Origin: an uncultured Anaerolineaceae bacterium
Lineage (GTDB): Bacteria > Chloroflexota > Anaerolineae > Anaerolineales > DRMV01
Assembly (NCBI GenBank): GCA_964435005.1
Contig: CAYSXA010000002.1
Span: 1 to 60,979 of the forward strand
Direction of reading: 5' to 3'
Length of the DNA stretch: 60,979 bases
A program made the translations under genes and the position numbers. How positions within the stretch are numbered: position 1 is the first letter of the stretch; each line of letters begins with the position of its first letter. The notes under the pieces were generated by a model. It saw nothing but the letters and a program-made list of their open reading frames with translations. It did no database searches and had not been told where the DNA came from. Of this stretch, positions 32,180 through 56,873 are shown one piece after another.

Positions 32180-33647
32180 ACGCTGGGAACGGCTGGGGGA
32201 GCGCATAGCGCCTGTTCTGTGGGCAGCATTGCTCATCTCCCTGCCTGTGACCAGTTTCCGACCACTTTCGCGACTGCTGGGCGGGCCAATGGTTGCCCCG
32301 CTGGCCATGGTGCCGATGGGCATGCTGCTCGTGGTCTGGGTCGCACCACATCTGCTACGACAACGGTGCCTGCCGCGCCTGACCTGGCCTTTCTTCGCCT
32401 TTGTCTGGGTGGCGTTGCTCGCTTCGCTGGCGGCCTTCTTCCTGCCCATCCCTCCCTATCGATCCCACACGATACTGACAAGCGAATTCAGCGCCTGGGC
32501 CACACTGGGCATCGGTGGTGGCTTTTACCTGACCACCATTACCTGGCTTCGAGACGAAAAACACCTGCGCAACGCGCTCTACTGGCTTAACCTGTCGGCA
32601 ATCGTACTGTTCACCTGGTCGGCGATACAAGGCTACTATGTGTTCGTGCGCAGCGCAAATCCGTCCTGGCTGATCACGGCACAGCGATGGATCAGTCTGC
32701 GTGGGCTGTTTCCGCACCGTCTGAACGGCCTGGCGTTTGAACCGTCGTGGCTGGCGCATGTGCTGAACATGGCTTACTTTCCCTGGTGGATCGCCGCCGT
32801 GACTCGACGACAGTCGGTGTATCGCTGGCGGCTGGGCCCGATCCTGGCGGAAGACCTGCTACTGGCCGTTGGGTTGCTCGTCCTGTTGTACTCGTTCTCG
32901 CGCATTGGCTTGATTTCCGTCCTTTTGATGACGGGCTACCTCAGCCTGCGATTGAACCTCTGGCTGGGGGAGCGTATCCACGTCTGGCTGCGTCGGCGGT
33001 TGCCCGCAGGCCGGGTTGTATCCATCATGCTGGGGGGCGGACTCTTCTTTGCCTTTCTGCTCTTTTACGCAGCGGTTTTGTACACCCTGATCCGTTTTGG
33101 TGCGCGCTACGATGTCCGTATCGCGGCCATGTTTGAGATCACTGCCGCCGATTTCACCAGCCCCTGGAATCTGGTGAATCGCCTGTTCTTCGCCGAACGA
33201 ATGGTTTACTGGGTGGCTGCCCTGCGCGTGTTCGGTCGTTTCCCCTGGCTGGGCGTAGGGTTGGGGAACGTGGGCTACTTTCTCCCTCAAACCCTGCCCG
33301 ATTTTGGCTGGTGGCTGCCGGAAGTCAACGATGTGTTGCTACGCTTCGCCTTTTTGCCCAACGCCAAGAACCTGTGGGTGCGTCTGCTGGCTGAAACCGG
33401 CGTTATGGGATGGACGGCTGTTCTGGTCTGGGTGTGGGGATTGTGGCGTGCGGCGCGGTCTCTGGAGCGAAAAACACCCGTGTCGCCGTTGATCAACCTG
33501 CTTGGGCTGGGCGGCCAGTTGATGTTGATCGCCTGGTTCTCCGAGGGGTTCAGCCTGGATACGTTTGGCCTGCCGTATTACTGGCTGGGGCTGGGAATAC
33601 TCACCGCCGCCGTGGCGGTGGGGGCACAGGAGGAATCGTTTTCATGA
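32172..33647 (+). CDS. O-antigen ligase / Wzy_C family polytopic membrane protein
   Basis: 491 aa, about 11-12 TM. HRLNGLAFEPSWLAHVL and FSRIGLISVLLM resemble the Wzy_C signature. Start ATG at 32172 overlaps the previous stop (ATGCTTGA). Confidence 0.7.
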   Translation: MLERWERLGERIAPVLWAALLISLPVTSFRPLSRLLGGPMVAPLAMVPMGMLLVVWVAPHLLRQRCLPRLTWPFFAFVWVALLASLAAFFLPIPPYRSHTILTSEFSAWATLGIGGGFYLTTITWLRDEKHLRNALYWLNLSAIVLFTWSAIQGYYVFVRSANPSWLITAQRWISLRGLFPHRLNGLAFEPSWLAHVLNMAYFPWWIAAVTRRQSVYRWRLGPILAEDLLLAVGLLVLLYSFSRIGLISVLLMTGYLSLRLNLWLGERIHVWLRRRLPAGRVVSIMLGGGLFFAFLLFYAAVLYTLIRFGARYDVRIAAMFEITAADFTSPWNLVNRLFFAERMVYWVAALRVFGRFPWLGVGLGNVGYFLPQTLPDFGWWLPEVNDVLLRFAFLPNAKNLWVRLLAETGVMGWTAVLVWVWGLWRAARSLERKTPVSPLINLLGLGGQLMLIAWFSEGFSLDTFGLPYYWLGLGILTAAVAVGAQEESFS

Positions 33648-35647
33648 AGACCCGACAATGGCCCTGGATTGCTATCGCTGCCGGTTGTGCGTTGCTTCTG
33701 CTGGCCTGCACCTGTACCCTGATCCTGGGTGCCAGCGTGGTCACGCTGGGAAGATGGCTGACCGATGCCCCGTTGGACATTCCGGTGACCGTTGCCGTCG
33801 CCACGCCGGTTCGCGTACCAACCATCCCGGCGGCGCAGTTACCCGAACTCTGGCAAGCGGCACAGGAAACACGTCAACAGTTAGAGAACACGCTGGTACC
33901 CGAGAATGACCCGCTGGACCTGGCCGTGCGGCTGGGGCAGGCCCCCGAGCCTGTCCCCTCGGTCGTCCCCAGCGGGCCGTACCAGGTAGGCGACCGCCAG
34001 GAATTCTGGGTCACGAACACAGACACCAACAAGACCAGCCGCGTTTCCGCCACCCTGCGCTATGTGACCGACCACCTGTACTTCTGGATCGCGGACGATG
34101 TAGATTACGACAAGCAGGCTCTGGCGCGTCTGGCGCAGTCCTTCGAGGAACACATCTACCCCACCGTGCGCAGCTTCTTCGGCAGCGAGTGGACACCCGG
34201 CATTGACGGTGATCCGCATCTGTATGTGCTCTACACCCACGGCATGGGAAATTCTGTGGCCGGCTACTTCTCCTCGGCGGACGAAGTGCCGCCGCTGGCG
34301 CACGAGTACTCCAACGCCCACGAGATGTTCTTCCTCAGTGCGGACAACGTGGCTCTGGACGAGGATTTCACCTACGGCGTGCTGGCGCACGAATTCCAGC
34401 ACATGATCCACTGGTATCGGGACCGCAACGAGACCTCCTGGCTGAACGAGGGCTTTTCAGAACTTGCGGCTTTCCTGGCCGGCTTCGACATAGGCCGCTT
34501 CGACTACGTTTACCTGCGTGCCCCCGATCTGCAACTGAACACCTGGCCCAGCAGCCAGCAGGCAGACACCAGCCCACATTACGGCGCGGGATTTCTCTTC
34601 GTTACCTACTTCCTGGACCGTTTCGGCGAGCAGGCCACGCGTGCGCTGGTGGCCGAGCCGCAAAACGGCCTGGTCAGCGTGGACCGCGTGCTCGCCGACC
34701 TCAACGCCACCGATCCGCTCACAGGCAAACTGTATCGCGCCGATGATTTCTTCCAGGACTGGACGATTGCCAACCTGCTGCGCGATGAGCATGTGGCTGA
34801 CGGGCGCTATACCTACCTGACATACCCCGACGTATCCAAGCCAAATGACACAGAGCACATCCACCGCTGTCCGTCCGACACGCCGCTGACAACCACAGTG
34901 CACCAGTACGGCGTGGACTACATCCGCATTACCTGCCGCGGTGACTACACGCTGCACTTTGAAGGTACGCCTTTTGTATCCGTGTTGCCGGTGGATCCGC
35001 ACTCCGGCGAGTTTGTCTTCTGGTCAAATCGCGGGGACGAATCCGACATGACGCTCACACGGCAATTCGATTTCACCGGTCTGGATTCGGTCACACTGAC
35101 GTACTGGATGTGGTACGATATCGAGCAGGATTACGACTACGTGTACCTGGAAGCCTCTACAGACGGCGAGCACTGGACGATCCTCACCACACCGTCTGGT
35201 ACGGGCGAAGACCCCAGCGGCAACAGCTACGGCTGGGCATATAACGGCCAGACGGGGCAATGGGTACAAGAGCGCGTGGATCTCTCGCCGTTCGCAGGGC
35301 AGCAGGTGTACCTGCGCTTCGAGTACGTCACCGATGCGGCGGTCAACGGAGAAGGCTTCCTGTTAGACGATATCGCCATCCCAGAACTCGGCTACCTGAC
35401 CGATTTCGAACAAGACGACGGCGGCTGGCAGGCAGCAGGCTTCGTCCGCTTACGCAATCGCCTGCCGCAAACTTACCGTGTGGCACTGGTCACCTTCGGC
35501 AAGGACACCACGGTACAGAAATGGGCGCTGAGCGGAGATCAGCCCCTCGACGTGCCCCTGCACCTGGAAGAGGACGCCGTGTTCGTCGTGAGCGGCACTA
35601 CACGCTTCACCCTGCAGCCCGCCGTGTACACCCTGGACATTCGCTAG
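33644..35647 (+). CDS. secreted/lipoprotein zinc metalloprotease (gluzincin HEFQH...WLNEGFSE), paralog A
   Basis: 667 aa from the ATG at 33644 (ATGA overlap with the ligase-like gene). Signal peptide with LLLACTC. Motifs VLAHEFQHMIHW + WLNEGFSE, GIDGDPHLYVLY, YLEASTDGEHWT, LDDIAIPELGY. Family (M30/M6-like) not resolved by eye. Confidence 0.7.
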   Translation: MKTRQWPWIAIAAGCALLLLACTCTLILGASVVTLGRWLTDAPLDIPVTVAVATPVRVPTIPAAQLPELWQAAQETRQQLENTLVPENDPLDLAVRLGQAPEPVPSVVPSGPYQVGDRQEFWVTNTDTNKTSRVSATLRYVTDHLYFWIADDVDYDKQALARLAQSFEEHIYPTVRSFFGSEWTPGIDGDPHLYVLYTHGMGNSVAGYFSSADEVPPLAHEYSNAHEMFFLSADNVALDEDFTYGVLAHEFQHMIHWYRDRNETSWLNEGFSELAAFLAGFDIGRFDYVYLRAPDLQLNTWPSSQQADTSPHYGAGFLFVTYFLDRFGEQATRALVAEPQNGLVSVDRVLADLNATDPLTGKLYRADDFFQDWTIANLLRDEHVADGRYTYLTYPDVSKPNDTEHIHRCPSDTPLTTTVHQYGVDYIRITCRGDYTLHFEGTPFVSVLPVDPHSGEFVFWSNRGDESDMTLTRQFDFTGLDSVTLTYWMWYDIEQDYDYVYLEASTDGEHWTILTTPSGTGEDPSGNSYGWAYNGQTGQWVQERVDLSPFAGQQVYLRFEYVTDAAVNGEGFLLDDIAIPELGYLTDFEQDDGGWQAAGFVRLRNRLPQTYRVALVTFGKDTTVQKWALSGDQPLDVPLHLEEDAVFVVSGTTRFTLQPAVYTLDIR

Positions 35648-35729: not shown

Positions 35730-37805
35730 ATGCACTATCGCCGTTTCCCCCTTCTCCTGCTGCTGGTGTTGGCGCTGCTCGTGAGCGCCTGCGGAAAGGC
35801 CGCCACACCAACACCAACCAGCGCCCCCCCAACCCAGGCACCGACCAAAGCACCCACACAGCCCCCCACGGCGGCACCGTCGGCCACGCCGACCGTGGAA
35901 CCGACGCCCGCCTGGCCAGAGCCGATCGCGCCGGAGGAAGACCTCAGCCGTTCCCCGGTCAGCGCGGTTGAACAGGCCACCTTTGACACCCTCGCCAGTC
36001 TGGACTTCGTGGAGAACGATCCCATCGGCCTGGCTGTCGCAATTAAAGGCGTGGAAGGCCCGGTGAACCCCGTAGCGGCGACCGAAGCCCCTACTCTGAA
36101 AGAAGGCACCGTGCAGACCTTCTGGGTGCACAACACGGACACCAACGAATGGAGTCAGGTGGAAGCCCGTCTGGAGCGCGTCACCGAACACGCCTACCTG
36201 TGGTTCGATACCAGCCGTGAACTGGTGCAGAAGGATGCCATCGACAAAGCTGCAGAGGCCTTCGAGAGCATGTACGAAGCCGATCGCGCCATCTACGGCA
36301 GCGAATGGAACCCCGGCATCGACGGCGATCCTCATGTCTATGTCCTGCACGCCGCCGCCACCGCGCTGTGCAACGTGACTGAGAGCACCGCCCACCAGTG
36401 CTCGCTGCTGGGCTATTTCTCCACCACGGACGAGTTGCCTGTGGCCGTAGAGCCGCACTCCAACCAGCATGAGATGTTCATCATGAACATGGATAAAGCG
36501 ATCGGCGGCGAGCAGTACCTCACCACCCTGATTCACGAATTCCGCCACATGATCGAGCACAATTACGACCGCCACGACGACGACTGGGAAGTGGAAGGCA
36601 CGGCGGTGATGGCGGAAGACCTGCTCGGCTACCCCAAGGTCGCAGGCGGCTACGGCAACGCGTTCACCGGCAACACCACCGACCTGCAACTGAACGTCTG
36701 GTCGCAGGGCGCCTCCGCCATTCAGCACTACGGCCAGGGTTATGTCTTTGCCCGCTACATCTACGACCGCCTGGGCCGTGATTTCTACTCGGCCTGGGTG
36801 CAGCACCCCGACCGCGGTTTCCTCGCCCTGGACGCCGTGTTGCAAGAGCAGGGGTACGATTTCAACGCCCACGACCTCTGGCTGGACTGGGCAACCGCCG
36901 TGGCGTTGCTGGGCTTCGACAACACCGCCATGCCTTACGCCTTCGGTGAGAACTTTTACGTCAAGCCGCCCAAGCGCACGCCGATCAACAAATTCCCCAA
37001 GACCATCAAGGACACGGTCAATCAGTACGCATTTGACGTGTACGACGTACGCGGCAAGGCACCAGTGCAGATCAACTTCACCGGCACGACCAAGGTCGCC
37101 GTGCTGGAGAACCTGCTTCCCGCTTCGGGCCAGTACATGTGGTGGTCGGGTCGCGCCAACCAGAGCGACATGAACCTGACCCGCGAGGTGGACCTGACCG
37201 GCGTGGACCAGGCCACCCTGGAGTACGACGTGTACTACAGCCTGGAGCGCGGCTACGACTTCGCTTATGTGCTGGTTTCGACCGACGGGGGCCAGACCTG
37301 GCAGTCGCTGGTCTCGGAAAACATGCAGGGCGAGAAAGCCAGCGACGATCCGGGCGACAACGCGCTCACCGACCGCTTCTACACCGGGCGCACGAAAGGC
37401 TGGGTGCATGAGAGCATCGACCTGAGTGACTACGCCGGGCAAAAAGTGCTCCTCCGCTTCCAGTACATCACCGACGCCATCTTCACCGGTCCCGGCATGG
37501 CGCTGGACAACATCGCCATCCCCGAAATCGGCTTCTACGACGACGCAGAAAGCCTGGCAGACGGCTGGCAGGCGCAGGGCTTCACCCGCGTGACGGCCTA
37601 CGAACCGCAGCGCTTCCACCTTGTGCTGGTCACCTTCGACGCAGACGGCGTGCCGCAAGTGCAGCGCATCGCCCTGGCCGACGACAACACGGCTTCCTTT
37701 GAAGTGCCGTTGAGCGAGGACAGCAGCCGCGCGTTGCTCATCGTGGCAGCGTCTAACCCACTGATCATGACGCCCGCACACTATCAGATCGAAGCCAGTC
37801 AGTAG
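35730..37805 (+). CDS. lipoprotein zinc metalloprotease (HEFRH...WEVEGTA), paralog B
   Basis: 691 aa. Lipobox LLVSAC, a 44-aa Pro/Thr/Ala linker, LIHEFRHMIEH + WEVEGTAVMAE, GIDGDPHVYVLH, YVLVSTDGGQTW, LDNIAIPEIGF. Collinear with paralog A. Confidence 0.7.
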   Translation: MHYRRFPLLLLLVLALLVSACGKAATPTPTSAPPTQAPTKAPTQPPTAAPSATPTVEPTPAWPEPIAPEEDLSRSPVSAVEQATFDTLASLDFVENDPIGLAVAIKGVEGPVNPVAATEAPTLKEGTVQTFWVHNTDTNEWSQVEARLERVTEHAYLWFDTSRELVQKDAIDKAAEAFESMYEADRAIYGSEWNPGIDGDPHVYVLHAAATALCNVTESTAHQCSLLGYFSTTDELPVAVEPHSNQHEMFIMNMDKAIGGEQYLTTLIHEFRHMIEHNYDRHDDDWEVEGTAVMAEDLLGYPKVAGGYGNAFTGNTTDLQLNVWSQGASAIQHYGQGYVFARYIYDRLGRDFYSAWVQHPDRGFLALDAVLQEQGYDFNAHDLWLDWATAVALLGFDNTAMPYAFGENFYVKPPKRTPINKFPKTIKDTVNQYAFDVYDVRGKAPVQINFTGTTKVAVLENLLPASGQYMWWSGRANQSDMNLTREVDLTGVDQATLEYDVYYSLERGYDFAYVLVSTDGGQTWQSLVSENMQGEKASDDPGDNALTDRFYTGRTKGWVHESIDLSDYAGQKVLLRFQYITDAIFTGPGMALDNIAIPEIGFYDDAESLADGWQAQGFTRVTAYEPQRFHLVLVTFDADGVPQVQRIALADDNTASFEVPLSEDSSRALLIVAASNPLIMTPAHYQIEASQ

Positions 37806-49055: not shown

Positions 49056-49739
49056 TCATTCTAAAGAGACCAGCCCTGTACGAATGGCAAACTTCACCAG
49101 TTCGGTGCGAGAATGCAGGTTCAGCTTCGCCATGATGCGTTCGCGGTGACGGGCTACGGTCTTCGGGCTGATGCCCAACCGCTCGCCGACCTGAGAATTG
49201 GTCAGTCCTTCCGCTACCAGTTCGAGCACCTGACGCTCGCGTTCAGTGAGCACCTCCAAGCCCGGATGCGGTTCATCCTTTTCCCTGGACAAAGCCGCCC
49301 GCTCGCTCAGGCGGCGGTAGTCTTCCAGCAACCAGCGCGCCAGCGAGGGTTGCAGGTAAACATGCCCTGCAGCCACAGCCCGGATAGCGTTGACCAGCTC
49401 ATCTGGCGCAGCACGCTTGGAAAGGTAACCCGATGCACCAGCGGCCAGCATCTCAAAGAAGTATTGCTTGTCCTCGTGCACGGTGAGCGCCAGCACCGGA
49501 CACTGGGCACCCATCTCCCGCAACCGTCGTGTGACCTGGATGCCATCCAGCTCCGGCATGGTAATGTCCATCAGGATCACGTCCGGACAGACCTCTGTAG
49601 CGACCTGTAAAGCTTCGACACCGCTGGCCGCCTCAGCGACCACGACGATCTCCTCGTGGGTTTCCAGGAAGGTACGCAATCCGGCACGCACCACCTCATG
49701 GTCGTCCACCAGCATCACGCGGATGGGTTCTTCCGTCAT
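49056..49739 (-). CDS. NarL/FixJ (LuxR-type HTH) response regulator
   Basis: REC domain VMLVDDHE...ILMDITMPELDG. C-terminal LTERERQVLELVAEGLTNSQVGERLGISPKTVARHRERIMAKL. Confidence 0.9.
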   Translation of the reverse strand: MTEEPIRVMLVDDHEVVRAGLRTFLETHEEIVVVAEAASGVEALQVATEVCPDVILMDITMPELDGIQVTRRLREMGAQCPVLALTVHEDKQYFFEMLAAGASGYLSKRAAPDELVNAIRAVAAGHVYLQPSLARWLLEDYRRLSERAALSREKDEPHPGLEVLTERERQVLELVAEGLTNSQVGERLGISPKTVARHRERIMAKLNLHSRTELVKFAIRTGLVSLE

Positions 49740-51214
49740 TCACCTTCCTCCTCGATCGGCTCCAGCCGGGCGGGAAGCCTGGCGCGGATGCGTGTTCCCC
49801 GTCCGGGAGCACTGTCCACCTCCAGCGTACCGCCGACTGCTTCCACTCGTTCCTGCATGCCCATTAACCCCCAACTCCACTCCGAACGCGGCTTTTGCTC
49901 CAGGTCAAAGCCAACGCCCTGATCACGCACTTCCAATTGTACTTCGTCTTCGCCGAACACAAGGCACACCTCCGCCTGATCCGTGCCCGCGTGGCGCACC
50001 ACGTTGGTCAGCGCCTCCTGTACGACACGGAAGATCACCGTTTCCAGTGTGGGATCGATCCGTCGGGATGCCTTCTGGACGTTCAGAGCGGTGCGCAAAC
50101 CGAGGTGGTAGTGCAGGTCTTCAACCAGACACTCCAGCGCGGGGATCAGACCCAGGTCGTCCAGTTGCGCCGGGCGCAGATCGTGCACCAGGTGCTGCAG
50201 GCGGCGGGCAACCTGATCGCCCAATGTACGGGCTTGTTGCAGATGATACGTCGCGGCCAGATTGTCCTTCACATGGTTTTGCAAGGCCGCCAGATGCAGG
50301 CTGAAGGCGGTCAGCGTCTGGGCAGTCTCGTCGTGCAACTCGCGCGCAATGCGAGCGCGTTCGTCTTCCTGCGCCTGGACGATGCGGCGTAGCAGTTCAC
50401 GACGCAGCGCCTCGCGGTGCACCAGTTCTCGCAGGCGCGCCTGCTGCGCCTCTTCCATCGCCTGACGGCGCTCCTGCTCGGCAGCCTGAATGGCATGCAA
50501 CAAACCGAGCGCCATGCCTGCCGCCAACACCGTCCGCACCACTTCCATCCGCATCCGCAGGATCTTCCCAATGCCGATCGCGTTCAACCAATCGGGAGAC
50601 TGCCAGCGCCCAGGCTGGACAAGCACCTGAGAGAGCGCGTACAACGCAAAGCAGAGCGCCGCCCACAGCAAACCTCGAGCCAGGGACGCGCGATTCTCGG
50701 CGATCAGCTCGCGGGCGCGGTGGCGCAGGGCAAACGCCGCCAGCAACGCCCCCGGCGCACCCAGACCGTAGCGCGCCAGACGATCAGCCTGGAGAAGCAA
50801 AGCCTCTGGTGGGAGCGGCTTCAGCAACGCAATTCCCAGCAGGACAGCCAGGTAAAAGAAAAGCAACCCAACGCCCACCCAGACGTCCCGCGCAGCGAGG
50901 CGGCGCGGCGGGTAGAGCACCTGCACTCCATAGGCCACCAGCGAGAGGAATGAAAGCACCAGCATGCCCACACGTAGCCAGGGTAACCAGGGAGGAAGGA
51001 ACCAACCCTGCCCCGGCTCCAGTTGCAACGCCAGCTCCACCCACTCGTGCAACCCATGCAATGCACCGAACACCGCCAGCGGCAAGAGGACACGCGCAGC
51101 GGCCAACCGGGGCGCGCGTCCCATTTCCAGCCCGAGCAGCGTGCCCAGCAGGACGAACGCCAGCCCGTAGGCCAGATAGATCGCAAACATGGTGGGGGAT
51201 AAGACGGCTTCCAT
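49736..51214 (-). CDS. membrane-embedded sensor histidine kinase (HisKA_3 / NarX-DesK type)
   Basis: About 6-7 N-terminal TM helices with only short loops, H-box RIARELHDETAQTL, HATPase_c (VVQEALTNVVRHA ... DQGVGF). ATGA overlap with the regulator gene. Confidence 0.85.
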   Translation of the reverse strand: MEAVLSPTMFAIYLAYGLAFVLLGTLLGLEMGRAPRLAAARVLLPLAVFGALHGLHEWVELALQLEPGQGWFLPPWLPWLRVGMLVLSFLSLVAYGVQVLYPPRRLAARDVWVGVGLLFFYLAVLLGIALLKPLPPEALLLQADRLARYGLGAPGALLAAFALRHRARELIAENRASLARGLLWAALCFALYALSQVLVQPGRWQSPDWLNAIGIGKILRMRMEVVRTVLAAGMALGLLHAIQAAEQERRQAMEEAQQARLRELVHREALRRELLRRIVQAQEDERARIARELHDETAQTLTAFSLHLAALQNHVKDNLAATYHLQQARTLGDQVARRLQHLVHDLRPAQLDDLGLIPALECLVEDLHYHLGLRTALNVQKASRRIDPTLETVIFRVVQEALTNVVRHAGTDQAEVCLVFGEDEVQLEVRDQGVGFDLEQKPRSEWSWGLMGMQERVEAVGGTLEVDSAPGRGTRIRARLPARLEPIEEEGE

Positions 51215-51253
51215 TTGTACTCATTGTACCCCATTCACAACACAGGAAAATGT

Positions 51254-51286
51254 GTCAAATGTCCTGCCATCAATAGGACATTTGAC
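51254..51286. promoter_or_regulatory. perfect 12-bp inverted repeat GTCAAATGTCCT-9 nt-AGGACATTTGAC; candidate operator
   Basis: Read directly in the 234-nt, visibly AT-richer divergent intergenic region between the kinase gene and the first cytochrome gene. Confidence 0.4.
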
Positions 51287-51448
51287 CCTCTCATCTATCT
51301 TTAATGTCGGGTATGATAGTTGTGGATTGGGTTATTTACCCCATCACCCAAGTGGGTCCTGTTCAAAGGAGGTGAAGTATAACCAGACTTTGACAATCCC
51401 TCGAACCACTTTGCACCACAAGTTTTTCGTTGAGAAGGAGAATGCCGT

Positions 51449-52720
51449 ATGAAGACCAAATGGTTCCTGTTCCTTGTGTTACTGGTGGCTGGCGCGCTGG
51501 TGTTCAGCGCGTGTGCTGGCCCCCAGGGGCCGGAAGGCCCACAAGGCCCCGCTGGTCCGCCCGGGCCGCAGGGCCCCGCTGGTCCGCCAGGCAAGGACGC
51601 CACGGCGGCTCAGCAATACGTTGGCTCCGAGAAGTGTGGCGAATGTCATGAGGCCGAGTACGAGAAGTTCGTGAAGTCCGGCCACCCCTACAAGCTGACC
51701 AAGATCGAAAACGGTCAGCCGCCGGAGTATCCCTTTGACGCAATCACTGGCGGCGTGCCCACCCCGCCGGAAGGGTACACCTGGGCCGACATCTCCTACG
51801 TGATCGGCGGCTTCGGCTGGAAGGCGCGCTTCCTGGACAAGGAAGGTTACATCATCACCGGGCCCCCGGGCACGCGTGGGGACAAGGCCGCGGCGGAGGG
51901 CTACGTCAACCAGTACAACTTCGCCAACGAGGTGGTCGGTAAAGAGGCTGGCTGGGTGCAGTACCACATCGGCGATGAAAAGCCCTACACCTGCGGCACC
52001 TGCCACACCACCGGCTACGATCCCGAGGGGCACCAGGATGACCTGCCCGGCATCGTGGGCACCTGGGCCTTCCCTGGCGTCCAGTGCGAAGAGTGCCACG
52101 GCCCTGGTAGCCTGCACAGCGAAGACCCCTACGGTGTGCCCGTTGTCGTGGAGCGCGCCTCGCAATTGTGCGGACGCTGCCACCTGCGCGGCGACCCGGC
52201 AGAGATCGACGCCAAGGGCGGCTTCGAGAAACACCACGAGCAATACGAAGACCTGCTGAACTCGAAGCACTTCGCGATCTCCTGCGTGACCTGCCACGAT
52301 CCGCACGCCTCGGCGATCTATGCCGACCCGAACGTCAACCCGAACAAGTCCATTCGCCAGACGTGTGATACCTGCCACTGGCAAAGCGCCAAATACCAGA
52401 AGACTGACAAGCACACCGGCGTGCAGTGCTACGAGTGCCACATGCCGCCAATGGCGAAGTCGGCCTGGGGCAATACGGACACCCTCACCGGGGACATCCA
52501 CTCCCATCAGTTCTCCATCAACACGGATCCCAACGATCCCCAGTTCACCGAGGATGGCAAGTACGTGATGCCATACATCACCCTGGCCTACGCCTGCCAG
52601 TGGTGCCACGATGGCGACAAGGCCTCCACGCAGGACCTGACCACCCTGGCCGATATGGCAAAGGGCTACCACATGCCGCCGGTTGAGACCGCGCCGACCA
52701 CTGAAACTACAACACCGTAG
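51449..52720 (+). CDS. octaheme c-type cytochrome lipoprotein with collagen-like N-terminal stalk
   Basis: 423 aa. Signal peptide with lipobox-like VFSAC. Eight CxxCH: CGECH, CGTCH, CEECH, CGRCH, CVTCH, CDTCH, CYECH, CQWCH. Thr/Pro-rich C-terminal tail. GAAGGAGA Shine-Dalgarno. Confidence 0.85.
   Translation: MKTKWFLFLVLLVAGALVFSACAGPQGPEGPQGPAGPPGPQGPAGPPGKDATAAQQYVGSEKCGECHEAEYEKFVKSGHPYKLTKIENGQPPEYPFDAITGGVPTPPEGYTWADISYVIGGFGWKARFLDKEGYIITGPPGTRGDKAAAEGYVNQYNFANEVVGKEAGWVQYHIGDEKPYTCGTCHTTGYDPEGHQDDLPGIVGTWAFPGVQCEECHGPGSLHSEDPYGVPVVVERASQLCGRCHLRGDPAEIDAKGGFEKHHEQYEDLLNSKHFAISCVTCHDPHASAIYADPNVNPNKSIRQTCDTCHWQSAKYQKTDKHTGVQCYECHMPPMAKSAWGNTDTLTGDIHSHQFSINTDPNDPQFTEDGKYVMPYITLAYACQWCHDGDKASTQDLTTLADMAKGYHMPPVETAPTTETTTP
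51518..51598 (+). repeat. nine uninterrupted Gly-X-Y (collagen-like) triplets; 9-nt periodic DNA with a 17-nt exact direct repeat
   Basis: GPQ GPE GPQ GPA GPP GPQ GPA GPP GKD (aa 24-50). ggccccgctggtccgcc occurs at 51545-51561 and again at 51572-51588. Confidence 0.85.
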
Positions 52721-52800: not shown

Positions 52801-53946
52801 ATGGTGCAAGCAACAAAATCCCGGCTGTGGCTGCTACTGATCCCTCTGCTTCTGGTGGGATTGGGGCGCGTGTCGCAGGCGCGGGCTGAAGGCGAAGGGC
52901 CGTTGCCACCGATTCCTCTGCCGACCAGTGTCCCGATGAGCAACGACCAGTGTCTGTCATGCCACATCACACCCTTCATGTATCGCACCCTGCCCGATGG
53001 ATCGCAGATCAACCTGACGCTGGATCGAATCCTGTTCAACACCTCGGTACACGGGCGAGAAGGGCTGTCCTGCGTGCAGTGTCACACAGAAATCACCGGC
53101 TTCCCACATCCGGAGCTCACGGTGGAGAGCCAGCGGGAACTGACCATTCAGTTGAACCGCGCCTGCGCGACCTGTCACGTCGGTGAAGCAGAACGTTACC
53201 GACAGGGCGATCATGCCCGCTTGCTGACAGAAGGGAACACAGACGCCGCCGTGTGCTCCGATTGCCACGGAGCACACCACCTGGAGGAATTCGGCGGTGC
53301 ACGCAGCAAAATCTCAGCCGCATGTCGGCAATGCCATGCCGAGATTTACGATGTGTACCGGGACAGCGTGCACGGCAAAGCGCTGATCGAAGAATTCAAC
53401 CCGGACGTGCCCACCTGCATAGATTGCCATAGCAACCACGCGAACGCAGGGCCAGCACAGCGGTCCTCTTTCCTCCTGTTCTCTCCGCAGATTTGCGCCC
53501 GATGCCATGCGGACGAAGAACTCATGGCGCGCTACGAGATCAACACCAACGTCTTTGAGACTTACGTGGCCGATTTCCATGGCACCACGGTGACCATCTT
53601 CGAGCAGATCGCGCCGGATCAGATCGTGAACAAGCCCGTATGTGTGGACTGTCACGGCGTGCACAACATCCTGCCACCTACCGACGAGAACAGCTCGGTG
53701 ATGAAAGACAACCTGGTGGAGACCTGCCGCCGCTGTCATCCAGAAGCCAATCTGAACTTCCCGGATGCCTGGATGAGCCATTACACACCTGACTGGAAAC
53801 ACACCCCGCTGGTCACGCTGGTGCAGTGGTTCTACAACATCGTGATCCCGCTCACCATCGGTGGGATGACTCTCTTCGTGGTCACCCATGCATGGCGCAC
53901 CCGCGTCCGTCGCCGAGTGGATACCCGGAAGGAGGGAGGCTCATGA
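52801..53946 (+). CDS. nonaheme c-type cytochrome with C-terminal membrane anchor
   Basis: 381 aa from the ATG at 52801. Signal peptide ending SQARA. Nine CxxCH: CLSCH, CVQCH, CATCH, CSDCH, CRQCH, CIDCH, CARCH, CVDCH, CRRCH. C-terminal TM WFYNIVIPLTIGGMTLFVV. Confidence 0.85.
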   Translation: MVQATKSRLWLLLIPLLLVGLGRVSQARAEGEGPLPPIPLPTSVPMSNDQCLSCHITPFMYRTLPDGSQINLTLDRILFNTSVHGREGLSCVQCHTEITGFPHPELTVESQRELTIQLNRACATCHVGEAERYRQGDHARLLTEGNTDAAVCSDCHGAHHLEEFGGARSKISAACRQCHAEIYDVYRDSVHGKALIEEFNPDVPTCIDCHSNHANAGPAQRSSFLLFSPQICARCHADEELMARYEINTNVFETYVADFHGTTVTIFEQIAPDQIVNKPVCVDCHGVHNILPPTDENSSVMKDNLVETCRRCHPEANLNFPDAWMSHYTPDWKHTPLVTLVQWFYNIVIPLTIGGMTLFVVTHAWRTRVRRRVDTRKEGGS

Positions 53947-55103
53947 GCGTCCCGGAGAAATTCGAGCGCTTTTCGCCCATTCGACGCTTTGAGCATTGGG
54001 TGATGGTGGCCTCGTTCACCGCCCTGGCATTCACTGGCCTGCCGCAGAAGTACATGGACTTGCCGATCTCGCTGGCGGTCCTGCGCGCGGTAGGCGGACT
54101 GGAGACCGCACGCGTGATCCACCGCGTGGCCGCGGTGATCTTGATGCTGATCTCCATGGTACACATCGGTTCGGTGCTACACGACTGGTATGTGAAGCGC
54201 CTTCGGGCGTCCATCATGCTGGGGAAGCAGGATCTGATCGACGCGATCGAGTATCTGCGCTACAACCTGGGACTGCGTCCCGAACCACCCAAGATGGGTT
54301 GGTTCACCTTTGACGAAAAAATCGAATACTGGTCGTTGATGTGGGGCACCCTGATCATGGTGCTGACCGGCTTCTTCCTCTGGAATCCGATCACGGCAGC
54401 TCGCCTTTTTCCTGGCGAATGGATCCCGGCAGCCAAGACCGCGCACGGATCCGAGGCGCTGCTGGCGGTACTGGCGATCCTGATCTGGCACACCTACCAC
54501 GTGCACCTCAAGCACTTCAACAAAAGCATGTTCACCGGTTACTTGACGCGGGAAGAGGTAGCCCAAGAACACCCGCTGGTGCTGGAACACCCACCGCAGC
54601 CCGCACCGTTCCCGGCAACCGAGCGGCACAAACGGCAACGCACCTTCCTGGCAGTGTACCTCATCCTGTGTCTGCTGTGGCTGGGCGGGGTGACCTGGTT
54701 CGTCACGGTCGAGCAAACGGCGACCAGTGCGCCAGAGCCGATCCCCGACATCGCTCAGGTCGAAGCTTTCGCGCAACTCACCCCCACGCCGCTCCCTCAG
54801 CCAGCGAATCTGGAGGAAGCCACCGCCCGTTACGGCACCACCTGGGAGGGCGGCATCGGCGCGTTGCTCAGCAGTAAGTGTGGTCGTTGCCATACGCCGC
54901 GCCTGGGTGCTCGTCATCTGGATTTAACCACCTACGCCGGCGCACTGGCCGGCGGCGATTCAGGGCCGGCGGTTGTCCCCAACTCCCCTGGCAGCAGCCT
55001 GGTGCTGATCTGGCCGAACCTGGAAGACCATCCGGCCCACTTAACCCCGCTGGAACGCGCCGCCGTCTGGAGATGGATCGTTCACGGCGCGCCCGAACGT
55101 TGA
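53943..55103 (+). CDS. FdnI/HydC-type b cytochrome (4 TM) fused to a fifth TM and an extracytoplasmic monoheme c domain (PSCyt1-like)
   Basis: - ATGA overlap with the previous gene.
- RFSPIRRFEHWVMVASFTALAFTGLP is typical of prokaryotic cytochrome b561 / formate dehydrogenase gamma.
- Conserved His in TM1, TM2 and TM4.
- C-terminus LLSSKCGRCH...GGDSGPAVVPNSPGSSL...WIVHGAPER. Confidence 0.8.
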   Translation: MSVPEKFERFSPIRRFEHWVMVASFTALAFTGLPQKYMDLPISLAVLRAVGGLETARVIHRVAAVILMLISMVHIGSVLHDWYVKRLRASIMLGKQDLIDAIEYLRYNLGLRPEPPKMGWFTFDEKIEYWSLMWGTLIMVLTGFFLWNPITAARLFPGEWIPAAKTAHGSEALLAVLAILIWHTYHVHLKHFNKSMFTGYLTREEVAQEHPLVLEHPPQPAPFPATERHKRQRTFLAVYLILCLLWLGGVTWFVTVEQTATSAPEPIPDIAQVEAFAQLTPTPLPQPANLEEATARYGTTWEGGIGALLSSKCGRCHTPRLGARHLDLTTYAGALAGGDSGPAVVPNSPGSSLVLIWPNLEDHPAHLTPLERAAVWRWIVHGAPER

Positions 55104-55169: not shown

Positions 55170-56873
55170 ATGGCGCTGAAATCACTGTGGGAGGTAATGA
55201 AGAAAGGCCAGATCTGGCTGCGCCTGGCGCCGTTCATCGCCCTGGCCGCGATCCTGGCAGTAGTGCTGTATGGCGGTATTTACGCCTGGACGTACACCAA
55301 CTCAGCGGAATTTTGCGGCAGCACCTGTCACACCATGCCGCCAGAGTACAGCGCCTATCAGCGGTCGCCGCACGCGCGGGTGCAGTGCGTCGAGTGTCAT
55401 CTAGGGCGCGACATCGTGACCAAACAGTTCACGCGCAAGGCCGGCGACCTGCGGCATGTGCTCGCCACCCTGACGCGCGACTACGAGTTCCCCATCTTCG
55501 CCAAAGAGATGCGCCCGGCGCGGGAGACCTGCGAGAAATGTCACTACCCGGAAAAATTCTCAGACGACAGCCTGCGAGAAATCCAGCGTTACCTACCCAA
55601 CGAGGAGAACGACCACGAAAGCATCTTCCTCATCCTGAAGACAGGCGGCGGGTCGAAGCGCGAGGGGCTGGGCAAAGGGATCCACTGGCACATCGAGAAT
55701 CCCATCCTTTTCCTGGCCACCGACGAATTGCAGCAAAACATCCCTTACGTGCGGGTGGTGCACGAAGACGGCACGTTCACCGAATACTACGACGTGACCT
55801 CAGGGTTCACACCTTACGACGTGGAACGCAAGCCGCTGCAACGCATGGACTGCATCACCTGCCACAACCGGGTGACACACCGCATCCTCGCACCCGATGA
55901 CGCGGTCGATCAGGCGTTGAGCAAGGGACTACTCCCCAAACTCCCCGACATCCGTCGTCAGGCGGAGAACTGGCTGCGTCAGCCGTTCACTTCGGTAGAC
56001 GAAGCGCAGGCAACTCTGGCGGAGCAGGTGCCAGCTTTCTATCAGCAACATTACCCTGATGTGAGCGCCGAGGATGTGCAACAGGCCGTCTCTGTGCTGC
56101 AAGAGATGTACGCCCGCCTGTACTTCCCGGAACAGAAAACGGACTGGCAAACGCACCCGGACAACCTGGGGCACCGCACATCGCCGGGTTGTTTTCGCTG
56201 CCACGACGGCAAACACATGACCGCCACCGGCGAAGCCATTCGACTGGAATGCAACCTGTGCCACTCCGTGCCAGTGATTTCCCAGGAAGGGGAACGGGTG
56301 GCCCGAATCGAGATCGTGCGCGGCCCGGAGCCGGTCTCGCACACCCACTCCAGCTGGATCAGCCTGCACGGCCAGGTGCTCGACTCGTCCTGTCAGGAAT
56401 GTCACCCGCCAGCCAGTCCGGATGTGGATTACATCCAGCTGGAAGGAAAACTGCCCTCGGACGGTTCCTTCTGCGGCAATCCGATGTGTCATGATCGGAA
56501 CTGGCAATATGCCGCCTTCGATGAGCCCGCCTTGCAGCCGTTATTGGATCAACAACTGTACATCCTGCTGAACACCAGCCCTTACCTGTTGGAAGGCGTG
56601 CCGCGCACCTACGAAGGCACCTTCAAGGCAATCTTCGACGGGCGCTGTGTTTTCTGTCACAGCGAGCCGGACGCTAAGGCCGACCTGGACATGAGCACCT
56701 ACGAAGGCATCCTGAGAGGGGGCAAAAACGGCCCTGGGATCGCACCCGGTGACCTGAAGGCCAGCCTGATCTGGCAACGCCAGACGCGCCGCAAGGCGCA
56801 CTTCGGTCAGATGCTGGACGACGAATTGGAAGCCCTGCGTGACTGGATTCTGGCCGGCGCGCCGGAAAGATAA
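55170..56873 (+). CDS. NapC/NirT-like membrane-anchored multiheme cytochrome with C-terminal PSCyt1-like domain
   Basis: 567 aa. N-terminal TM. NapC-like EFCGSTCHTM (CxxxCH) + SPHARVQCVECH + CEKCH + CITCH, then CFRCH, CNLCH, CQECH, CGNPMCH (CxxxxCH), CVFCH. C-terminal end is WILAGAPER. Confidence 0.8.
   Translation: MALKSLWEVMKKGQIWLRLAPFIALAAILAVVLYGGIYAWTYTNSAEFCGSTCHTMPPEYSAYQRSPHARVQCVECHLGRDIVTKQFTRKAGDLRHVLATLTRDYEFPIFAKEMRPARETCEKCHYPEKFSDDSLREIQRYLPNEENDHESIFLILKTGGGSKREGLGKGIHWHIENPILFLATDELQQNIPYVRVVHEDGTFTEYYDVTSGFTPYDVERKPLQRMDCITCHNRVTHRILAPDDAVDQALSKGLLPKLPDIRRQAENWLRQPFTSVDEAQATLAEQVPAFYQQHYPDVSAEDVQQAVSVLQEMYARLYFPEQKTDWQTHPDNLGHRTSPGCFRCHDGKHMTATGEAIRLECNLCHSVPVISQEGERVARIEIVRGPEPVSHTHSSWISLHGQVLDSSCQECHPPASPDVDYIQLEGKLPSDGSFCGNPMCHDRNWQYAAFDEPALQPLLDQQLYILLNTSPYLLEGVPRTYEGTFKAIFDGRCVFCHSEPDAKADLDMSTYEGILRGGKNGPGIAPGDLKASLIWQRQTRRKAHFGQMLDDELEALRDWILAGAPER

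What the first reader, a model, noticed from the sequence alone, without database searches (positions are those of the whole stretch)
51518..51598. Collagen-like Gly-X-Y stalk between the lipid anchor and the heme domain of an octaheme cytochrome
Two residues after the lipobox-like Cys22, the protein has nine uninterrupted triplets: GPQ GPE GPQ GPA GPP GPQ GPA GPP GKD.

Bacterial collagen-like proteins (Scl1/Scl2, BclA) use such repeats to trimerise and form rigid stalks. I know of no multiheme cytochrome with one.

If triple-helical, 27 residues at about 0.29 nm rise would give a 7-8 nm spacer. That would hold a trimer of 8-heme domains away from the membrane, roughly a cell-wall thickness.

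The DNA is 9-nt periodic with an exact 17-nt direct repeat 27 nt apart. Repeat number could therefore vary by slippage without frameshift.
Basis: partly seen in the sequence, partly recalled or inferred. Interest (0 to 1): 0.68.

Follow-up and report, generated by a model that had tools for sequence, protein, structure and literature searches.

The report
Collagen-like stalk on octaheme cytochrome
A membrane-anchored eight-heme respiratory protein carries a short collagen-type repeat whose glycines are as strictly conserved as its heme-binding residues across more than a hundred relatives, which suggests, but does not prove, a three-chain stalk that groups these proteins and holds them off the membrane.

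Summary
**Observation: confirmed.**
- ORF 51449-52720 (+) encodes a 423-aa protein.
- It has a signal peptide, a lipobox Cys22, nine uninterrupted Gly-X-Y triplets (aa 24-50, nt 51518-51598) and eight CxxCH motifs.

**The repeat is a conserved module, not a generic Pro/Gly linker.**
- In 88 aligned homologs (57-81% identity), Gly30 to Gly48 are invariant (88/88) and the stalk has no gaps.
- Position X is Pro in 80-88 of 88 sequences for five of the seven core triplets. Position Y varies.
- Across species genomes, 39 of 48 Chloroflexota loci carry lipobox plus at least 6 triplets (6-22).
- None of 32 loci from other phyla do, although a Myxococcota variant turned up in a wider search.
- Longer-stalk relatives pass Pfam's Collagen threshold. 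The window protein scores 21 bits against a cut-off of 27.2.

**The heme domain** belongs to the OcwA/OmhA/MccA/c554 clade. The gene sits with an NrfH-like quinol dehydrogenase.

**Best reading (about 0.6):** a lipid-anchored collagen triple helix that trimerises the cytochrome and acts as a 6-8 nm spacer. Triple-helix formation and the trimer are inferred, not shown.

**No paper in the searched library links collagen-like repeats with multiheme cytochromes.** I rate it a new variant of known kinds.

The parts
51435..51440 (+). Shine-Dalgarno-like AAGGAG, 8 nt before the ATG
   Evidence: Read from the sequence
51449..51514 (+). Signal peptide with lipobox (VFSA-C); Cys22 is the predicted lipid-modified first residue of the mature protein
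   Evidence: for the translation. Cys22 is invariant in 88/88 homologs, which mostly have L-[AVT]-[AG]-C.
51518..51598 (+). Nine uninterrupted Gly-X-Y triplets (aa 24-50): the collagen-like stalk
   Evidence: Pfam Collagen PF01391 scores E 2.8e-4 and 21 bits, below the 27.2 cut-off. It is the longest such run in the window and exceeds all shuffles.
51536..51598 (+). Core of seven triplets (aa 30-50) with invariant glycines and constant length across the close family
   Evidence: G30, G33, G36, G39, G42, G45 and G48 are 88/88 with no gaps. P46 is 88/88 and A35 is 85/88.
51545..51561 (+). First copy of the exact 17-nt repeat GGCCCCGCTGGTCCGCC (encodes GPAGPP)
51572..51588 (+). Second copy of the 17-nt repeat, 27 nt downstream
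51599..51634 (+). Conserved 12-residue connector (ATAAQQYVGSEK) between the stalk and heme 1; the last stalk Gly is 15 residues before the first heme Cys
   Evidence: The AlphaFold2 model has pLDDT below 50 at aa 48-52.
51635..52672 (+). Octaheme domain (aa 63-408, eight CxxCH) of the OcwA/OmhA/MccA/c554 clade
   Evidence: Sequence matches to OcwA 6i5b: E 1.6e-12 and profile E 5.3e-21. Foldseek: MccA 4rkm E 2.1e-13 with TM 0.58, OcwA 7.2e-13, OmhA 6qvm 1.5e-9. AlphaFold2 mean pLDDT is 86.
52673..52720 (+). C-terminal Pro/Thr-rich tail (aa 409-423) plus stop; an ordinary low-complexity tail that serves as an internal contrast to the stalk
   Evidence: Its length and gaps vary in the alignment. 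In 507-513-aa homologs it leads to an extra cytochrome c domain.
52801..53946 (+). Nine-CxxCH cytochrome with a signal sequence and a C-terminal membrane helix (the ORF could also start at 52741)
   Evidence: It is called as 381 aa in L083. The same gene order occurs in L001 and L002.
53943..55103 (+). Membrane cytochrome b (Ni_hydr_CYTB / formate dehydrogenase gamma-like) fused to a PSCyt1 c-heme domain; its ATG overlaps the previous stop (ATGA)
   Evidence: Homologs in L001 and L002 are 384-385 aa.
55170..56873 (+). NrfH/NapC-like membrane quinol dehydrogenase (N-terminal helix, CGSTCH plus seven CxxCH, C-terminal PSCyt1); the most constant neighbour of the octaheme gene
   Evidence: Pfam Cytochrom_NNT E 5.7e-12 and TIGR03153 NrfH E 5.3e-19. 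It is present in L001, L002 and L084. In L084 it directly follows the octaheme gene.
49736..51214 (-). Divergently transcribed membrane histidine kinase (HisKA_3 type), a candidate regulator of the cluster
   Evidence: Pfam families are listed for the same gene in L083. The same arrangement occurs in L002.
49056..49739 (-). LuxR/NarL-type response regulator paired with the kinase
   Evidence: Its counterpart in L002 has Response_reg plus GerE.

Best explanation
The gene encodes an extracytoplasmic octaheme c-type cytochrome that is a lipoprotein.

**Proposed mechanism**
1. After export and signal-peptide cleavage, Cys22 is lipid-modified and anchors the protein in the cytoplasmic membrane.
2. 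Residues 24-50 of three copies wind into a collagen-type triple helix. This is one Gly per three residues with Pro at X: seven invariant triplets plus two less conserved ones.
3. The helix does two things.
   - It makes the protein a trimer, giving 24 hemes as three globular heme domains on short 12-residue connectors, like the heads of BclA or C1q.
   - It acts as a stiff spacer of about 6-8 nm (21-27 residues at about 0.29 nm each) between the membrane and the heme domains.
4. Electrons come from the quinol pool through the co-encoded NrfH-like quinol dehydrogenase. In this window they may also pass through the cytochrome b and the membrane-anchored nine-heme cytochrome.
5. The octaheme trimer is the distal or terminal member of the chain. 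It acts either as a cell-surface reductase like its relatives OcwA and OmhA, or as a reductase of small N or S compounds.

**Shown**
- The sequence anatomy.
- Strict family-wide conservation of the Gly register and of stalk length.
- The link between lipobox and stalk.
- The phylogenetic distribution.
- The fold family of the heme domain.
- The conserved gene neighbourhood.

**Inferred**
- Lipidation.
- Triple-helix formation and the trimer.
- The spacer role.
- The direction and partners of electron flow.
For: **Anatomy**
- Searches give the ORF, signal peptide, stalk and heme motifs.

**Gly register conserved like the catalytic residues**
- In 88 homologs of 57-81% identity, G30, G33, G36, G39, G42, G45 and G48 are invariant, alongside the CxxCH Cys and His.
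- The stalk has no gaps. X is Pro in 80-88/88 at five of the seven core triplets, while Y varies among A, P, V, Q, M and E.
- The protein's own C-terminal Pro/Thr tail shows no such constraint.

**Prevalence and length**
- 110 of the 120 best homologs have 7-15 uninterrupted triplets right after the lipobox Cys.
- The run is interrupted in only one locus seen (L018). Run length differs between homologs from 6 to 41 triplets.

**Residue usage fits a non-hydroxylated triple helix**
- X is 71% Pro. Y is mainly Ala, Pro, Val, Gln and Glu.
- Ten of the 18 X/Y positions in the window stalk are Pro.

**Selection acts on the protein, not on a DNA repeat**
- All four Gly and all four Pro codons are used about evenly in 32 stalks.

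**Collagen model**
- Longer-stalk family members pass Pfam Collagen's curated cut-off: P0135 72 bits, P0138 49.3, P0152 36.8, P0085 33.8.

**Distribution**
- 39/48 Chloroflexota loci have lipobox plus at least 6 triplets, against 0/32 loci of other phyla. One Acidimicrobiaceae MAG has 5.
- Homologs in the other phyla (typically two-membraned bacteria, plus the archaeon Methanoperedens) start 'xEYVGSxxCxxCH' directly after the signal peptide.

**Heme domain**
- OcwA/OmhA/MccA clade (PMC9250108).
- OcwA and OmhA are cell-surface cytochromes of single-membrane Firmicutes (PMC6703420, PMC9250108).
- MccA is a homotrimer (my own knowledge of Hermann et al. 2015; not verified here).

**Gene cluster**
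- Conserved with an NrfH-like quinol dehydrogenase.
Against: - No structural evidence exists for a triple helix or a trimer. The AlphaFold2 monomer simply leaves aa 23-59 without secondary structure, at pLDDT about 78 falling to 53. The tool cannot model oligomers.
- Seven to nine triplets without hydroxyproline are at the edge of stability as free peptides (established knowledge of (Pro-Pro-Gly)n peptides). Folding would need help from membrane tethering or from contacts between the heme domains.
- The window protein itself scores below Pfam Collagen's cut-off, 21 against 27.2 bits.
- The closest solved relative by sequence, OcwA, is a monomer/dimer mixture, not a trimer (PMC6703420).
- The stalk is not strictly confined to single-membrane phyla. 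A variant with 16 triplets occurs in Myxococcota. This weakens the 'spans the cell wall of a monoderm' reading.
- Stalk length does not track the heme number of the downstream partner cytochrome, so a simple 'matched ruler' is not supported.
- Some core Y positions are conserved more tightly than a generic collagen helix needs (A35 85/88, V32 65/88). This could point to a specific binding surface instead.
Confidence: 0.6

Rival explanations
1. The Gly-X-Y segment is a single-chain, extended polyproline-II-type spacer. It holds a monomeric cytochrome away from the membrane, with no triple helix and no trimer.
For: - The stalk is short, at 7-9 triplets.
- The AlphaFold2 monomer shows an extended, unstructured segment.
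- OcwA, a relative, is a monomer/dimer.
- Pro-rich linkers are common in lipoproteins (general knowledge), and this protein has one at its C terminus.
Against: - A single-chain spacer does not need Gly at every third residue. Yet seven Gly columns are 88/88 invariant with no gaps, while the Y positions drift.
- Only one interrupted run was seen (L018), and run length ranges from 6 to 41 triplets across homologs.
- The protein's own Pro/Thr tail shows what an unconstrained linker looks like: variable length and no fixed columns.
- Longer relatives match the curated collagen model.
Confidence: 0.2
2. The Gly-X-Y segment is mainly a docking element. Either it forms mixed triple helices with other stalked cytochromes of the same cell, or it binds a specific envelope component. 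Its main job is then neither homotrimerisation nor spacing.
For: - Some genomes carry several stalked cytochromes close together.
  - L008 (9 triplets) and L024 (12) lie on one contig.
  - L011 and L019 have a second, stalked octaheme gene just downstream.
  - L028 has a further stalked cytochrome 3 kb downstream.
- Sequence-specific conservation goes beyond Gly and Pro (A35, V32, P46).
Against: - Paralogs on one contig have stalks of different length, which fits mixed helices poorly.
- The window holds only one stalked protein in 61 kb.
- No candidate binding partner was identified.
Confidence: 0.12
3. The repeat is a neutral low-complexity product of GC-rich sequence and replication slippage, with no structural role.
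For: - The window is 62% G+C.
- There is an exact 17-nt repeat 27 nt apart.
- The three closest sequences (the window protein, P0002 and P0003) show a 9-residue super-period, GPxGPxGPQ.
Against: - No tandem repeat is detectable.
- Codon usage in the stalk is diverse.
- The Gly columns and the stalk length are invariant over 88 sequences down to 57% identity.
- Shuffles never reach 9 triplets.
Confidence: 0.02

Closest known systems
BclA of the Bacillus anthracis exosporium, and C1q/collectin-type proteins
   Same: The order of parts is the same: an N-terminal anchor, then a collagen-like Gly-X-Y stalk, then a C-terminal globular head. In these proteins the stalk is a trimer, its length sets how far the head stands from the surface, and triplet number differs between strains (established knowledge).
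   Different: - The head here is an eight-heme redox domain, not a C1q/TNF-like jelly roll.
- The anchor is a lipid-modified Cys in the cytoplasmic membrane.
- The stalk is much shorter (7-10 triplets in the close family, against 17-91 in BclA), and its length is fixed within the close family.
- The trimer is not demonstrated.
Streptococcal collagen-like proteins Scl1/Scl2 (NCBIfam NF038329)
   Same: Both are bacterial cell-surface proteins with a Gly-X-Y region that lacks hydroxyproline. There is weak sequence similarity: E 0.0016 over aa 24-53.
   Different: - Scl proteins are LPXTG wall-anchored at the C terminus, have an N-terminal variable domain, carry tens of triplets, and act in adhesion.
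- The window protein scores 17 bits against a cut-off of 325. It is not a member.
OcwA (Thermincola potens, PDB 6i5b) and OmhA (Carboxydothermus ferrireducens, PDB 6qvm)
   Same: The heme domain is the same fold family. All are extracytoplasmic multiheme cytochromes of bacteria without an outer membrane. OcwA and OmhA serve as cell-surface terminal reductases (PMC6703420, PMC9250108).
   Different: - OcwA has nine hemes and OmhA eleven; this protein has eight.
- PMC6703420 mentions neither a lipoprotein nor an anchor for OcwA, and PMC9250108 mentions no collagen-like region or lipoprotein for either protein.
- OcwA is a monomer/dimer mixture with C-terminal helices. The model here shows only short C-terminal helices.
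- Sequence identity is about 18%.
MccA, octaheme sulfite reductase of Wolinella succinogenes (PDB 4rkm)
   Same: It is the best structural match (Foldseek E 2.1e-13, TM 0.58 normalised to the query). It has eight hemes and is a homotrimer (my own knowledge; not verified here).
   Different: - MccA is a soluble periplasmic enzyme of about 660-730 aa with a copper site and a CX15CH eighth heme motif (PMC9250108).
- The eighth motif here is an ordinary CQWCH.
- MccA has no lipid anchor and no Gly-X-Y region.
NrfHA-type quinol:cytochrome modules
   Same: A membrane NrfH/NapC-family quinol dehydrogenase is encoded next to a multiheme cytochrome of the NrfA superfamily.
   Different: - The NrfH-like protein here is 567 aa with extra hemes and a PSCyt1 domain.
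- The partner is an octaheme lipoprotein on a stalk.
- The substrate is unknown.

Membership tests
Collagen triple helix repeat proteins (Pfam PF01391; bacterial collagen-like proteins) | Uninterrupted (Gly-X-Y)n | tested here: met
   The window protein has nine triplets at aa 24-50. Homologs have 7-41.
Collagen triple helix repeat proteins (Pfam PF01391; bacterial collagen-like proteins) | Score at or above the curated Pfam cut-off (27.2 bits) | tested here: not met
   The window protein scores 21 bits, E 2.8e-4, because the stalk covers less than half of the 60-position model. Longer-stalk family members do pass: 72, 49.3, 36.8 and 33.8 bits.
Collagen triple helix repeat proteins (Pfam PF01391; bacterial collagen-like proteins) | Gly register under purifying selection, with length changing by whole triplets | tested here: met
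   Seven Gly columns are 88/88 with no gaps. Runs are uninterrupted, with one exception (L018), and range from 6 to 41 triplets.
Collagen triple helix repeat proteins (Pfam PF01391; bacterial collagen-like proteins) | Formation of a parallel three-chain helix (trimer, CD maximum near 220-225 nm, cooperative melting) | not testable with these tools
   Only a monomer could be modelled. This needs an oligomer prediction or experiment.
Collagen triple helix repeat proteins (Pfam PF01391; bacterial collagen-like proteins) | An adjacent domain or tether that brings three chains into register | tested here: inconclusive
   Candidates are the lipid anchor 1-8 residues upstream and the heme domain, whose best structural match MccA is a trimer (the trimer is from my own knowledge). 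However, OcwA is a monomer/dimer.
Bacterial lipoproteins (Lgt/Lsp substrates) | Signal peptide ending in a lipobox with an invariant Cys | tested here: met
   The window has VFSA-C22. Phe at position -3 is unusual. Homologs mostly have L-[AVT]-[AG]-C, and the Cys is 88/88.
Bacterial lipoproteins (Lgt/Lsp substrates) | Lipid modification of the Cys, and presence of lgt and lsp in the genome | not tested
   I did not look for these genes. The window is only part of a genome.
OcwA/OmhA/MccA/c554 clade of the NrfA-HAO multiheme cytochrome superfamily | Sequence and fold similarity of the heme domain | tested here: met
   OcwA E 1.6e-12 and profile E 5.3e-21. Foldseek: MccA 2.1e-13, OcwA 7.2e-13, OmhA 1.5e-9.
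OcwA/OmhA/MccA/c554 clade of the NrfA-HAO multiheme cytochrome superfamily | MccA-specific features: CX15CH eighth heme motif and copper-binding Cys pair | tested here: not met
   The eighth motif is CQWCH. The protein is 423 aa, against about 660-730 for MccA. It is not an MccA orthologue.
OcwA/OmhA/MccA/c554 clade of the NrfA-HAO multiheme cytochrome superfamily | OcwA-specific features: nine hemes and two penta-coordinated hemes with distal His-His pairs | tested here: inconclusive
   There are eight hemes, not nine. A conserved 'HHEQ' occurs at aa 261-264 (H262 at 90% or more), but I could not align it to OcwA H281/H282.
OcwA/OmhA/MccA/c554 clade of the NrfA-HAO multiheme cytochrome superfamily | Three long C-terminal helices that form the oligomer interface | tested here: inconclusive
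   The model shows only short helices after aa 379, at 379-383 and 397-404. I made no residue-level superposition.

The most novel reading that the evidence does not exclude
A lipid-anchored collagen triple helix is the conserved assembly and spacing device of a large, undescribed family of respiratory octaheme cytochromes. The family is mainly in Chloroflexota, with a variant in Myxococcota.

On this reading:
- The helix builds 24-heme 'bouquets' that stand a set distance above the cytoplasmic membrane. That distance is about 6-8 nm for 7-10 triplets and up to about 35 nm for 41.
- Paralogs with different stalk lengths in one cell work at different heights in the envelope.

Collagen would then act as a molecular ruler for electron transfer outside the cytoplasm in bacteria that lack an outer membrane.
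Probability: 0.35. Interest if true: 0.8.

Novelty: new variant of a known kind. Interest (0 to 1): 0.68.

Why it matters
**The open question**
- How bacteria without an outer membrane place redox proteins across or on their cell envelope is poorly understood.
- The few studied cases, OcwA and OmhA in Firmicutes, are described in the papers read here with no lipoprotein or membrane anchor for OcwA and no collagen-like region.

**If the stalk is a triple helix**
- It would be the first collagen-type oligomerisation and spacer element described on a multiheme cytochrome.
- It would imply trimeric 24-heme assemblies at a defined height above the membrane.
- It would apply to a whole family of environmental Chloroflexota, which are abundant in sediments, soils and wastewater sludge.

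**Wider use**
- It would give a compact natural example of a very short, hydroxyproline-free collagen helix stabilised by membrane tethering. That is of interest to collagen biophysics and protein design.
- The hypothesis is directly testable with one recombinant protein.

Tried and rejected
- **DNA tandem repeat or slippage array.** TRF and the repeat finder found nothing. Codon usage is diverse and internal exact repeats are short across 32 stalks. Rejected as the explanation. The 17-nt repeat is real, and may be the trace of an old three-triplet duplication.
- **Chance product of GC-rich sequence.** Rejected by shuffles and by conservation.
- **Downstream start codon.** Rejected. There is no in-frame start between the repeat and heme 1, the protein needs the upstream signal peptide, and there is a good ribosome-binding site.
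- **'Ruler' test.** I compared stalk length with the heme number and length of the downstream partner cytochrome in 46 loci and found no clear relation. Partners of 7, 8-9 and 13-14 hemes occur with both short and long stalks.
- **'Only in single-membrane phyla'.** This holds in the species-genome scan. It is broken by a Myxococcota variant found through the representative search.
- **General Chloroflexota lipoprotein feature?** In about 0.9 Mb of held DNA, every real ORF with at least 6 triplets is a cytochrome of this kind or a neighbouring cytochrome. The rest are antisense images. The sample is biased to these loci, so the question stays open.
- **Curated family names.** NCBIfam gave only sub-threshold hits.
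- **Promoter and terminator scan of 51150-51500.** Nothing found.
- **Literature.** Five searches combining collagen terms with cytochrome or Chloroflexi terms found nothing relevant.
- **MccA oligomeric state.** I tried to confirm it from open papers and failed. The statement rests on my own knowledge.
Full report
**1. The observation**

ORF 51449-52720 on the + strand encodes a 423-aa protein.
- It starts with a typical signal peptide that ends in VFSA-Cys22.
- After one Ala come nine uninterrupted Gly-X-Y triplets: GPQ GPE GPQ GPA GPP GPQ GPA GPP GKD.
- Eight CxxCH heme-binding motifs follow, at aa 63, 182, 213, 241, 279, 306, 327 and 383.

The 17-nt exact repeat GGCCCCGCTGGTCCGCC is present at 51545 and 51572. 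Tandem Repeats Finder (minimum score 30) and the repeat finder report no repeat family. The '9-nt periodicity' is therefore the coding pattern GGN-CCN-NNN and not a DNA array.

The run of nine triplets is the longest in all six frames of the window. In 200 shuffles of the window, the longest run was 4-7.

The start codon is sound.
- AAGGAG lies 8 nt upstream.
- There is no in-frame start codon between the repeat and the first heme motif.
- A c-type cytochrome needs the upstream signal peptide for export.

**2. The repeat is conserved, not a generic linker**

A protein search found 2584 homologs at E of 1e-5 or better. I fetched the best 120.
- 110 of them have 7-15 uninterrupted Gly-X-Y triplets directly after a lipobox Cys. 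In 42 of these the count includes the Gly that precedes the lipobox Cys, so they have one triplet fewer after the Cys.
- The first heme Cys sits about 41 residues after the lipid-anchor Cys in most.

In an alignment of 88 single-module homologs at 57-81% identity:
- The invariant columns are the heme Cys and His residues, Cys22, and Gly30, 33, 36, 39, 42, 45 and 48.
- There is no gap anywhere in the stalk.
- Position X is Pro in 80-88 of 88 sequences at five of the seven core triplets.
- Position Y drifts among Ala, Pro, Val, Gln, Met and Glu.
- The two N-terminal triplets are looser: Gly24 is 58/88 and Gly27 is 80/88.

The protein's own C-terminal Pro/Thr-rich tail is a useful contrast. It varies in length and has no fixed columns.

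Over 1027 triplets from the family, X is 71% Pro. Y is Ala 30%, Pro 18%, Val 13%, Gln 10% and Glu 9%. This fits what is known of residue preferences in non-hydroxylated triple helices (my own knowledge of host-guest peptide work). In the window stalk, 10 of the 18 X/Y positions are Pro.

At the DNA level, 32 stalks from different genomes use all four Gly codons and all four Pro codons about evenly, and have only short internal exact repeats. The constraint is on the protein.

**3. Distribution**

A scan of one genome per species found 326 loci encoding a relative and kept the best 80. I reconstructed the N termini of those 80.
- Of 48 loci labelled Chloroflexota, 39 have lipobox plus at least 6 triplets, ranging from 6 to 22. 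The labels cover Anaerolineae, Ardenticatenaceae, Promineifilaceae, Caldilineae, 'Chloroflexia', Dehalococcoidales and Candidatus Aquidulcis. Taxonomy for two of these was checked.
- None of 32 loci from other phyla do. These phyla are Nitrospirota, Zixiibacteriota, Calditrichota, Ignavibacteria, Desulfobacterota, Spirochaetes and the archaeon Methanoperedens, among others.
- Those homologs begin 'xEYVGSxxCxxCH' right after the signal peptide, or have a lipobox with a short non-repetitive linker.
- One Acidimicrobiaceae MAG has five triplets.

An exhaustive profile search of 1.84 billion cluster representatives found 389 clusters at E of 1e-30 or better.
- Among the top 149, about 26 have a lipobox and at least 6 triplets before heme 1, with up to 41 triplets in P0135.
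- These longer stalks pass Pfam's curated Collagen cut-off of 27.2 bits: P0135 72 bits, P0138 49.3, P0152 36.8, P0085 33.8.
- The window protein scores 21 bits.
- One such cluster (P0152, 16 triplets) is named Myxococcota by NCBI. The stalk is therefore not strictly limited to bacteria with a single membrane.

Tandemly duplicated 16-heme forms lack the stalk, as does a 32-heme form.

**4. The rest of the protein and its neighbours**

An AlphaFold2 monomer built on the 88-sequence alignment has mean pLDDT 86. It leaves aa 23-59 without secondary structure.

The heme domain's best structural matches are:
- MccA octaheme sulfite reductase (4rkm, E 2.1e-13, TM 0.58).
- OcwA of Thermincola (6i5b, E 7.2e-13).
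- The S-layer undecaheme OmhA of Carboxydothermus (6qvm, E 1.5e-9).

By sequence the best hit is OcwA: E 1.6e-12 and profile E 5.3e-21. These proteins form 'clade 3' of the NrfA/HAO superfamily (PMC9250108). OcwA and OmhA are cell-surface reductases of Gram-positive bacteria (PMC6703420; PMC9250108). No curated NCBIfam model claims the protein.

It is neither MccA nor OcwA.
- The eighth heme motif is an ordinary CQWCH, not MccA's CX15CH.
- It has eight hemes, not OcwA's nine.

Downstream lie three genes:
- A nine-CxxCH cytochrome with a C-terminal membrane helix (52801-53946).
- A membrane cytochrome b fused to a PSCyt1 heme domain (53943-55103, start overlapping the previous stop).
- A 567-aa NrfH/NapC-like quinol dehydrogenase (55170-56873).

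The same four-gene order occurs around homologs of 63% identity (L001, L002). Around the 77%-identical P0003, the octaheme gene is followed directly by the NrfH-like gene and sits next to cytochrome c maturation genes. The NrfH-like protein is thus the most constant partner.

A divergent histidine kinase and LuxR-type regulator pair (49056-51214, minus strand) is also found in L002.

**5. Most likely mechanism**

The pattern is what a collagen triple helix demands and what a single-chain spacer does not:
- Gly fixed at every third residue as strictly as the heme ligands.
- Pro at X.
- A free Y position.
- Length differing between homologs with almost no interruptions.
- Constant placement right after a lipid-anchor Cys.

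I therefore read the stalk as a lipid-tethered triple helix that makes the cytochrome a trimer. Three heads with 24 hemes would sit on 12-residue connectors, held about 6-8 nm from the membrane (21-27 residues at about 0.29 nm rise; established geometry). Electrons would arrive from quinol through the NrfH-like protein, and here possibly also through the cytochrome b and the nine-heme cytochrome.

I put this at about 0.6. The steps shown are the anatomy, conservation, distribution, fold family and gene context. The steps inferred are lipidation, helix formation, the trimer, the spacing role and the electron path.

Points against:
- There is no structural evidence.
- The stalk is short and lacks hydroxyproline, so it would be marginally stable on its own.
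- OcwA is a monomer/dimer.
- A Myxococcota variant exists.
- Stalk length does not track the size of the partner cytochrome.
- Some Y positions are conserved beyond what a generic helix needs.

**6. Rivals**
- **A monomeric extended spacer (0.2).** This is hard to square with the invariant Gly register.
- **A docking or mixed-helix element (0.12).** This is suggested by several stalked cytochromes per genome (L008/L024, L011, L019, L028). However, these stalks differ in length.
- **A neutral slippage product (0.02).** This is contradicted.

**7. Comparison with what is known, and novelty**

In layout (anchor, collagen stalk, globular head) the closest analogues are BclA of the Bacillus exosporium and C1q/collectins. 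In redox biology the closest are OcwA and OmhA.

The combination of a lipoprotein anchor, a collagen-like stalk and a multiheme cytochrome is not described in any paper I could find.
- No paper holds both 'collagen-like' and 'multiheme cytochrome'.
- The other four searches gave nothing relevant.
- The library covers open-access papers only.

The domain combination is already visible in databases as unremarked Pfam hits on a few homologs. I rate it a new variant of known kinds.

The exceptions are the slippage idea, which is not supported, and the implied uniqueness, since this is a whole family.

**8. Verdict**

This is a real, strongly conserved and apparently undescribed feature, with a clear and testable structural hypothesis. 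Interest 0.68.

Noticed in passing
window 51479-52672 (minus strand); stalk image at 51514-51585: A 397-aa antisense ORF mirrors the cytochrome gene. It carries its own 8-triplet Gly-X-Y run (GPAGPCGPGGPAGPCGPSGPWGPA), because GGN-CCN reads as Gly-Pro on both strands. Similar antisense images occur in many related loci. This is a trap for ORF callers and for collagen-repeat scans.
   Followed up: partly
window 52673-52717; homologs P0014, P0044, P0045, P0049, P0072, P0078: The protein ends in a Pro/Thr-rich tail. In 507-513-aa homologs the same tail links to an extra C-terminal monoheme cytochrome c domain (PF13442/PF00034). In L028 it links to a different 90-aa C-terminal domain.
   Followed up: no
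P0004, P0006, P0008, P0033, P0093, P0121; loci L045, L062, L064: There are tandem fusions of the octaheme module: 16 hemes in about 720 aa, and one protein of 1398 aa with 32 CxxCH. Partial copies lie in Zixiibacteriota and Calditrichota loci. All have a lipobox-like Cys but no Gly-X-Y stalk.
   Followed up: partly
P0144, P0145, P0152, P0159, P0176, P0208 (P0152 cluster named Myxococcota): In these relatives the Gly-X-Y stalk is followed by a Cys-bounded acidic module. An example is CWDLNGNGEPDADSEDLNADGAVDIYDC, which resembles calcium-binding Dx[DN]xDG repeats. The module sits before the heme domain and Pfam does not name it. It could be a trimerisation or calcium-binding knot.
   Followed up: partly
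L008 and L024 (same contig WYBM01000035.1); L011 at about 7437-7527; L019 at about 2209-2287; L028 at about 10313; L003 minus strand at about 2108: Several genomes carry two or more stalked cytochromes close together, with different stalk lengths (for example 9 and 12 triplets on one contig). L028 has a further lipoprotein with 16 triplets followed by a CxxCH motif (ETCATCH). That ORF is cut off at the end of the locus, so I could not tell whether it belongs to this family.
   Followed up: partly
window 53943-53946: The likely ATG of the cytochrome b gene overlaps the stop codon of the nine-heme cytochrome gene (ATGA), with GGAGG upstream. This suggests translational coupling. The mechanical ORF start at 53826 (GTG) is probably too far upstream.
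   Followed up: partly
window 55311-55328 (aa 48-53 of the NrfH-like protein): The first heme motif of the NrfH-like protein reads CGSTCH, with three residues between the Cys, instead of CxxCH.
   Followed up: no
window 49056-51214 (minus strand) and intergenic 51215-51448: A membrane histidine kinase (HisKA_3) and a LuxR-type regulator are transcribed divergently from the cytochrome cluster. The same pairing occurs in L002. No sigma-70-like promoter was found in the 234-nt intergenic region.
   Followed up: partly
window 33410-35647 and 35730-37805: Two adjacent large ORFs (745 and 691 aa) each carry an InhA-like MAM domain. A 1292-aa multi-glycosyltransferase/methyltransferase lies at 23708-27586.
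   Followed up: no
aa 261-264 of the octaheme protein (window 52229-52240): A conserved His-His-Glu-Gln (H262 at 90% or more in 88 homologs) recalls the non-ligating distal His-His pairs above the open-coordination hemes of OcwA. If equivalent, the protein has a substrate-binding heme. I could not establish the alignment.
   Followed up: partly
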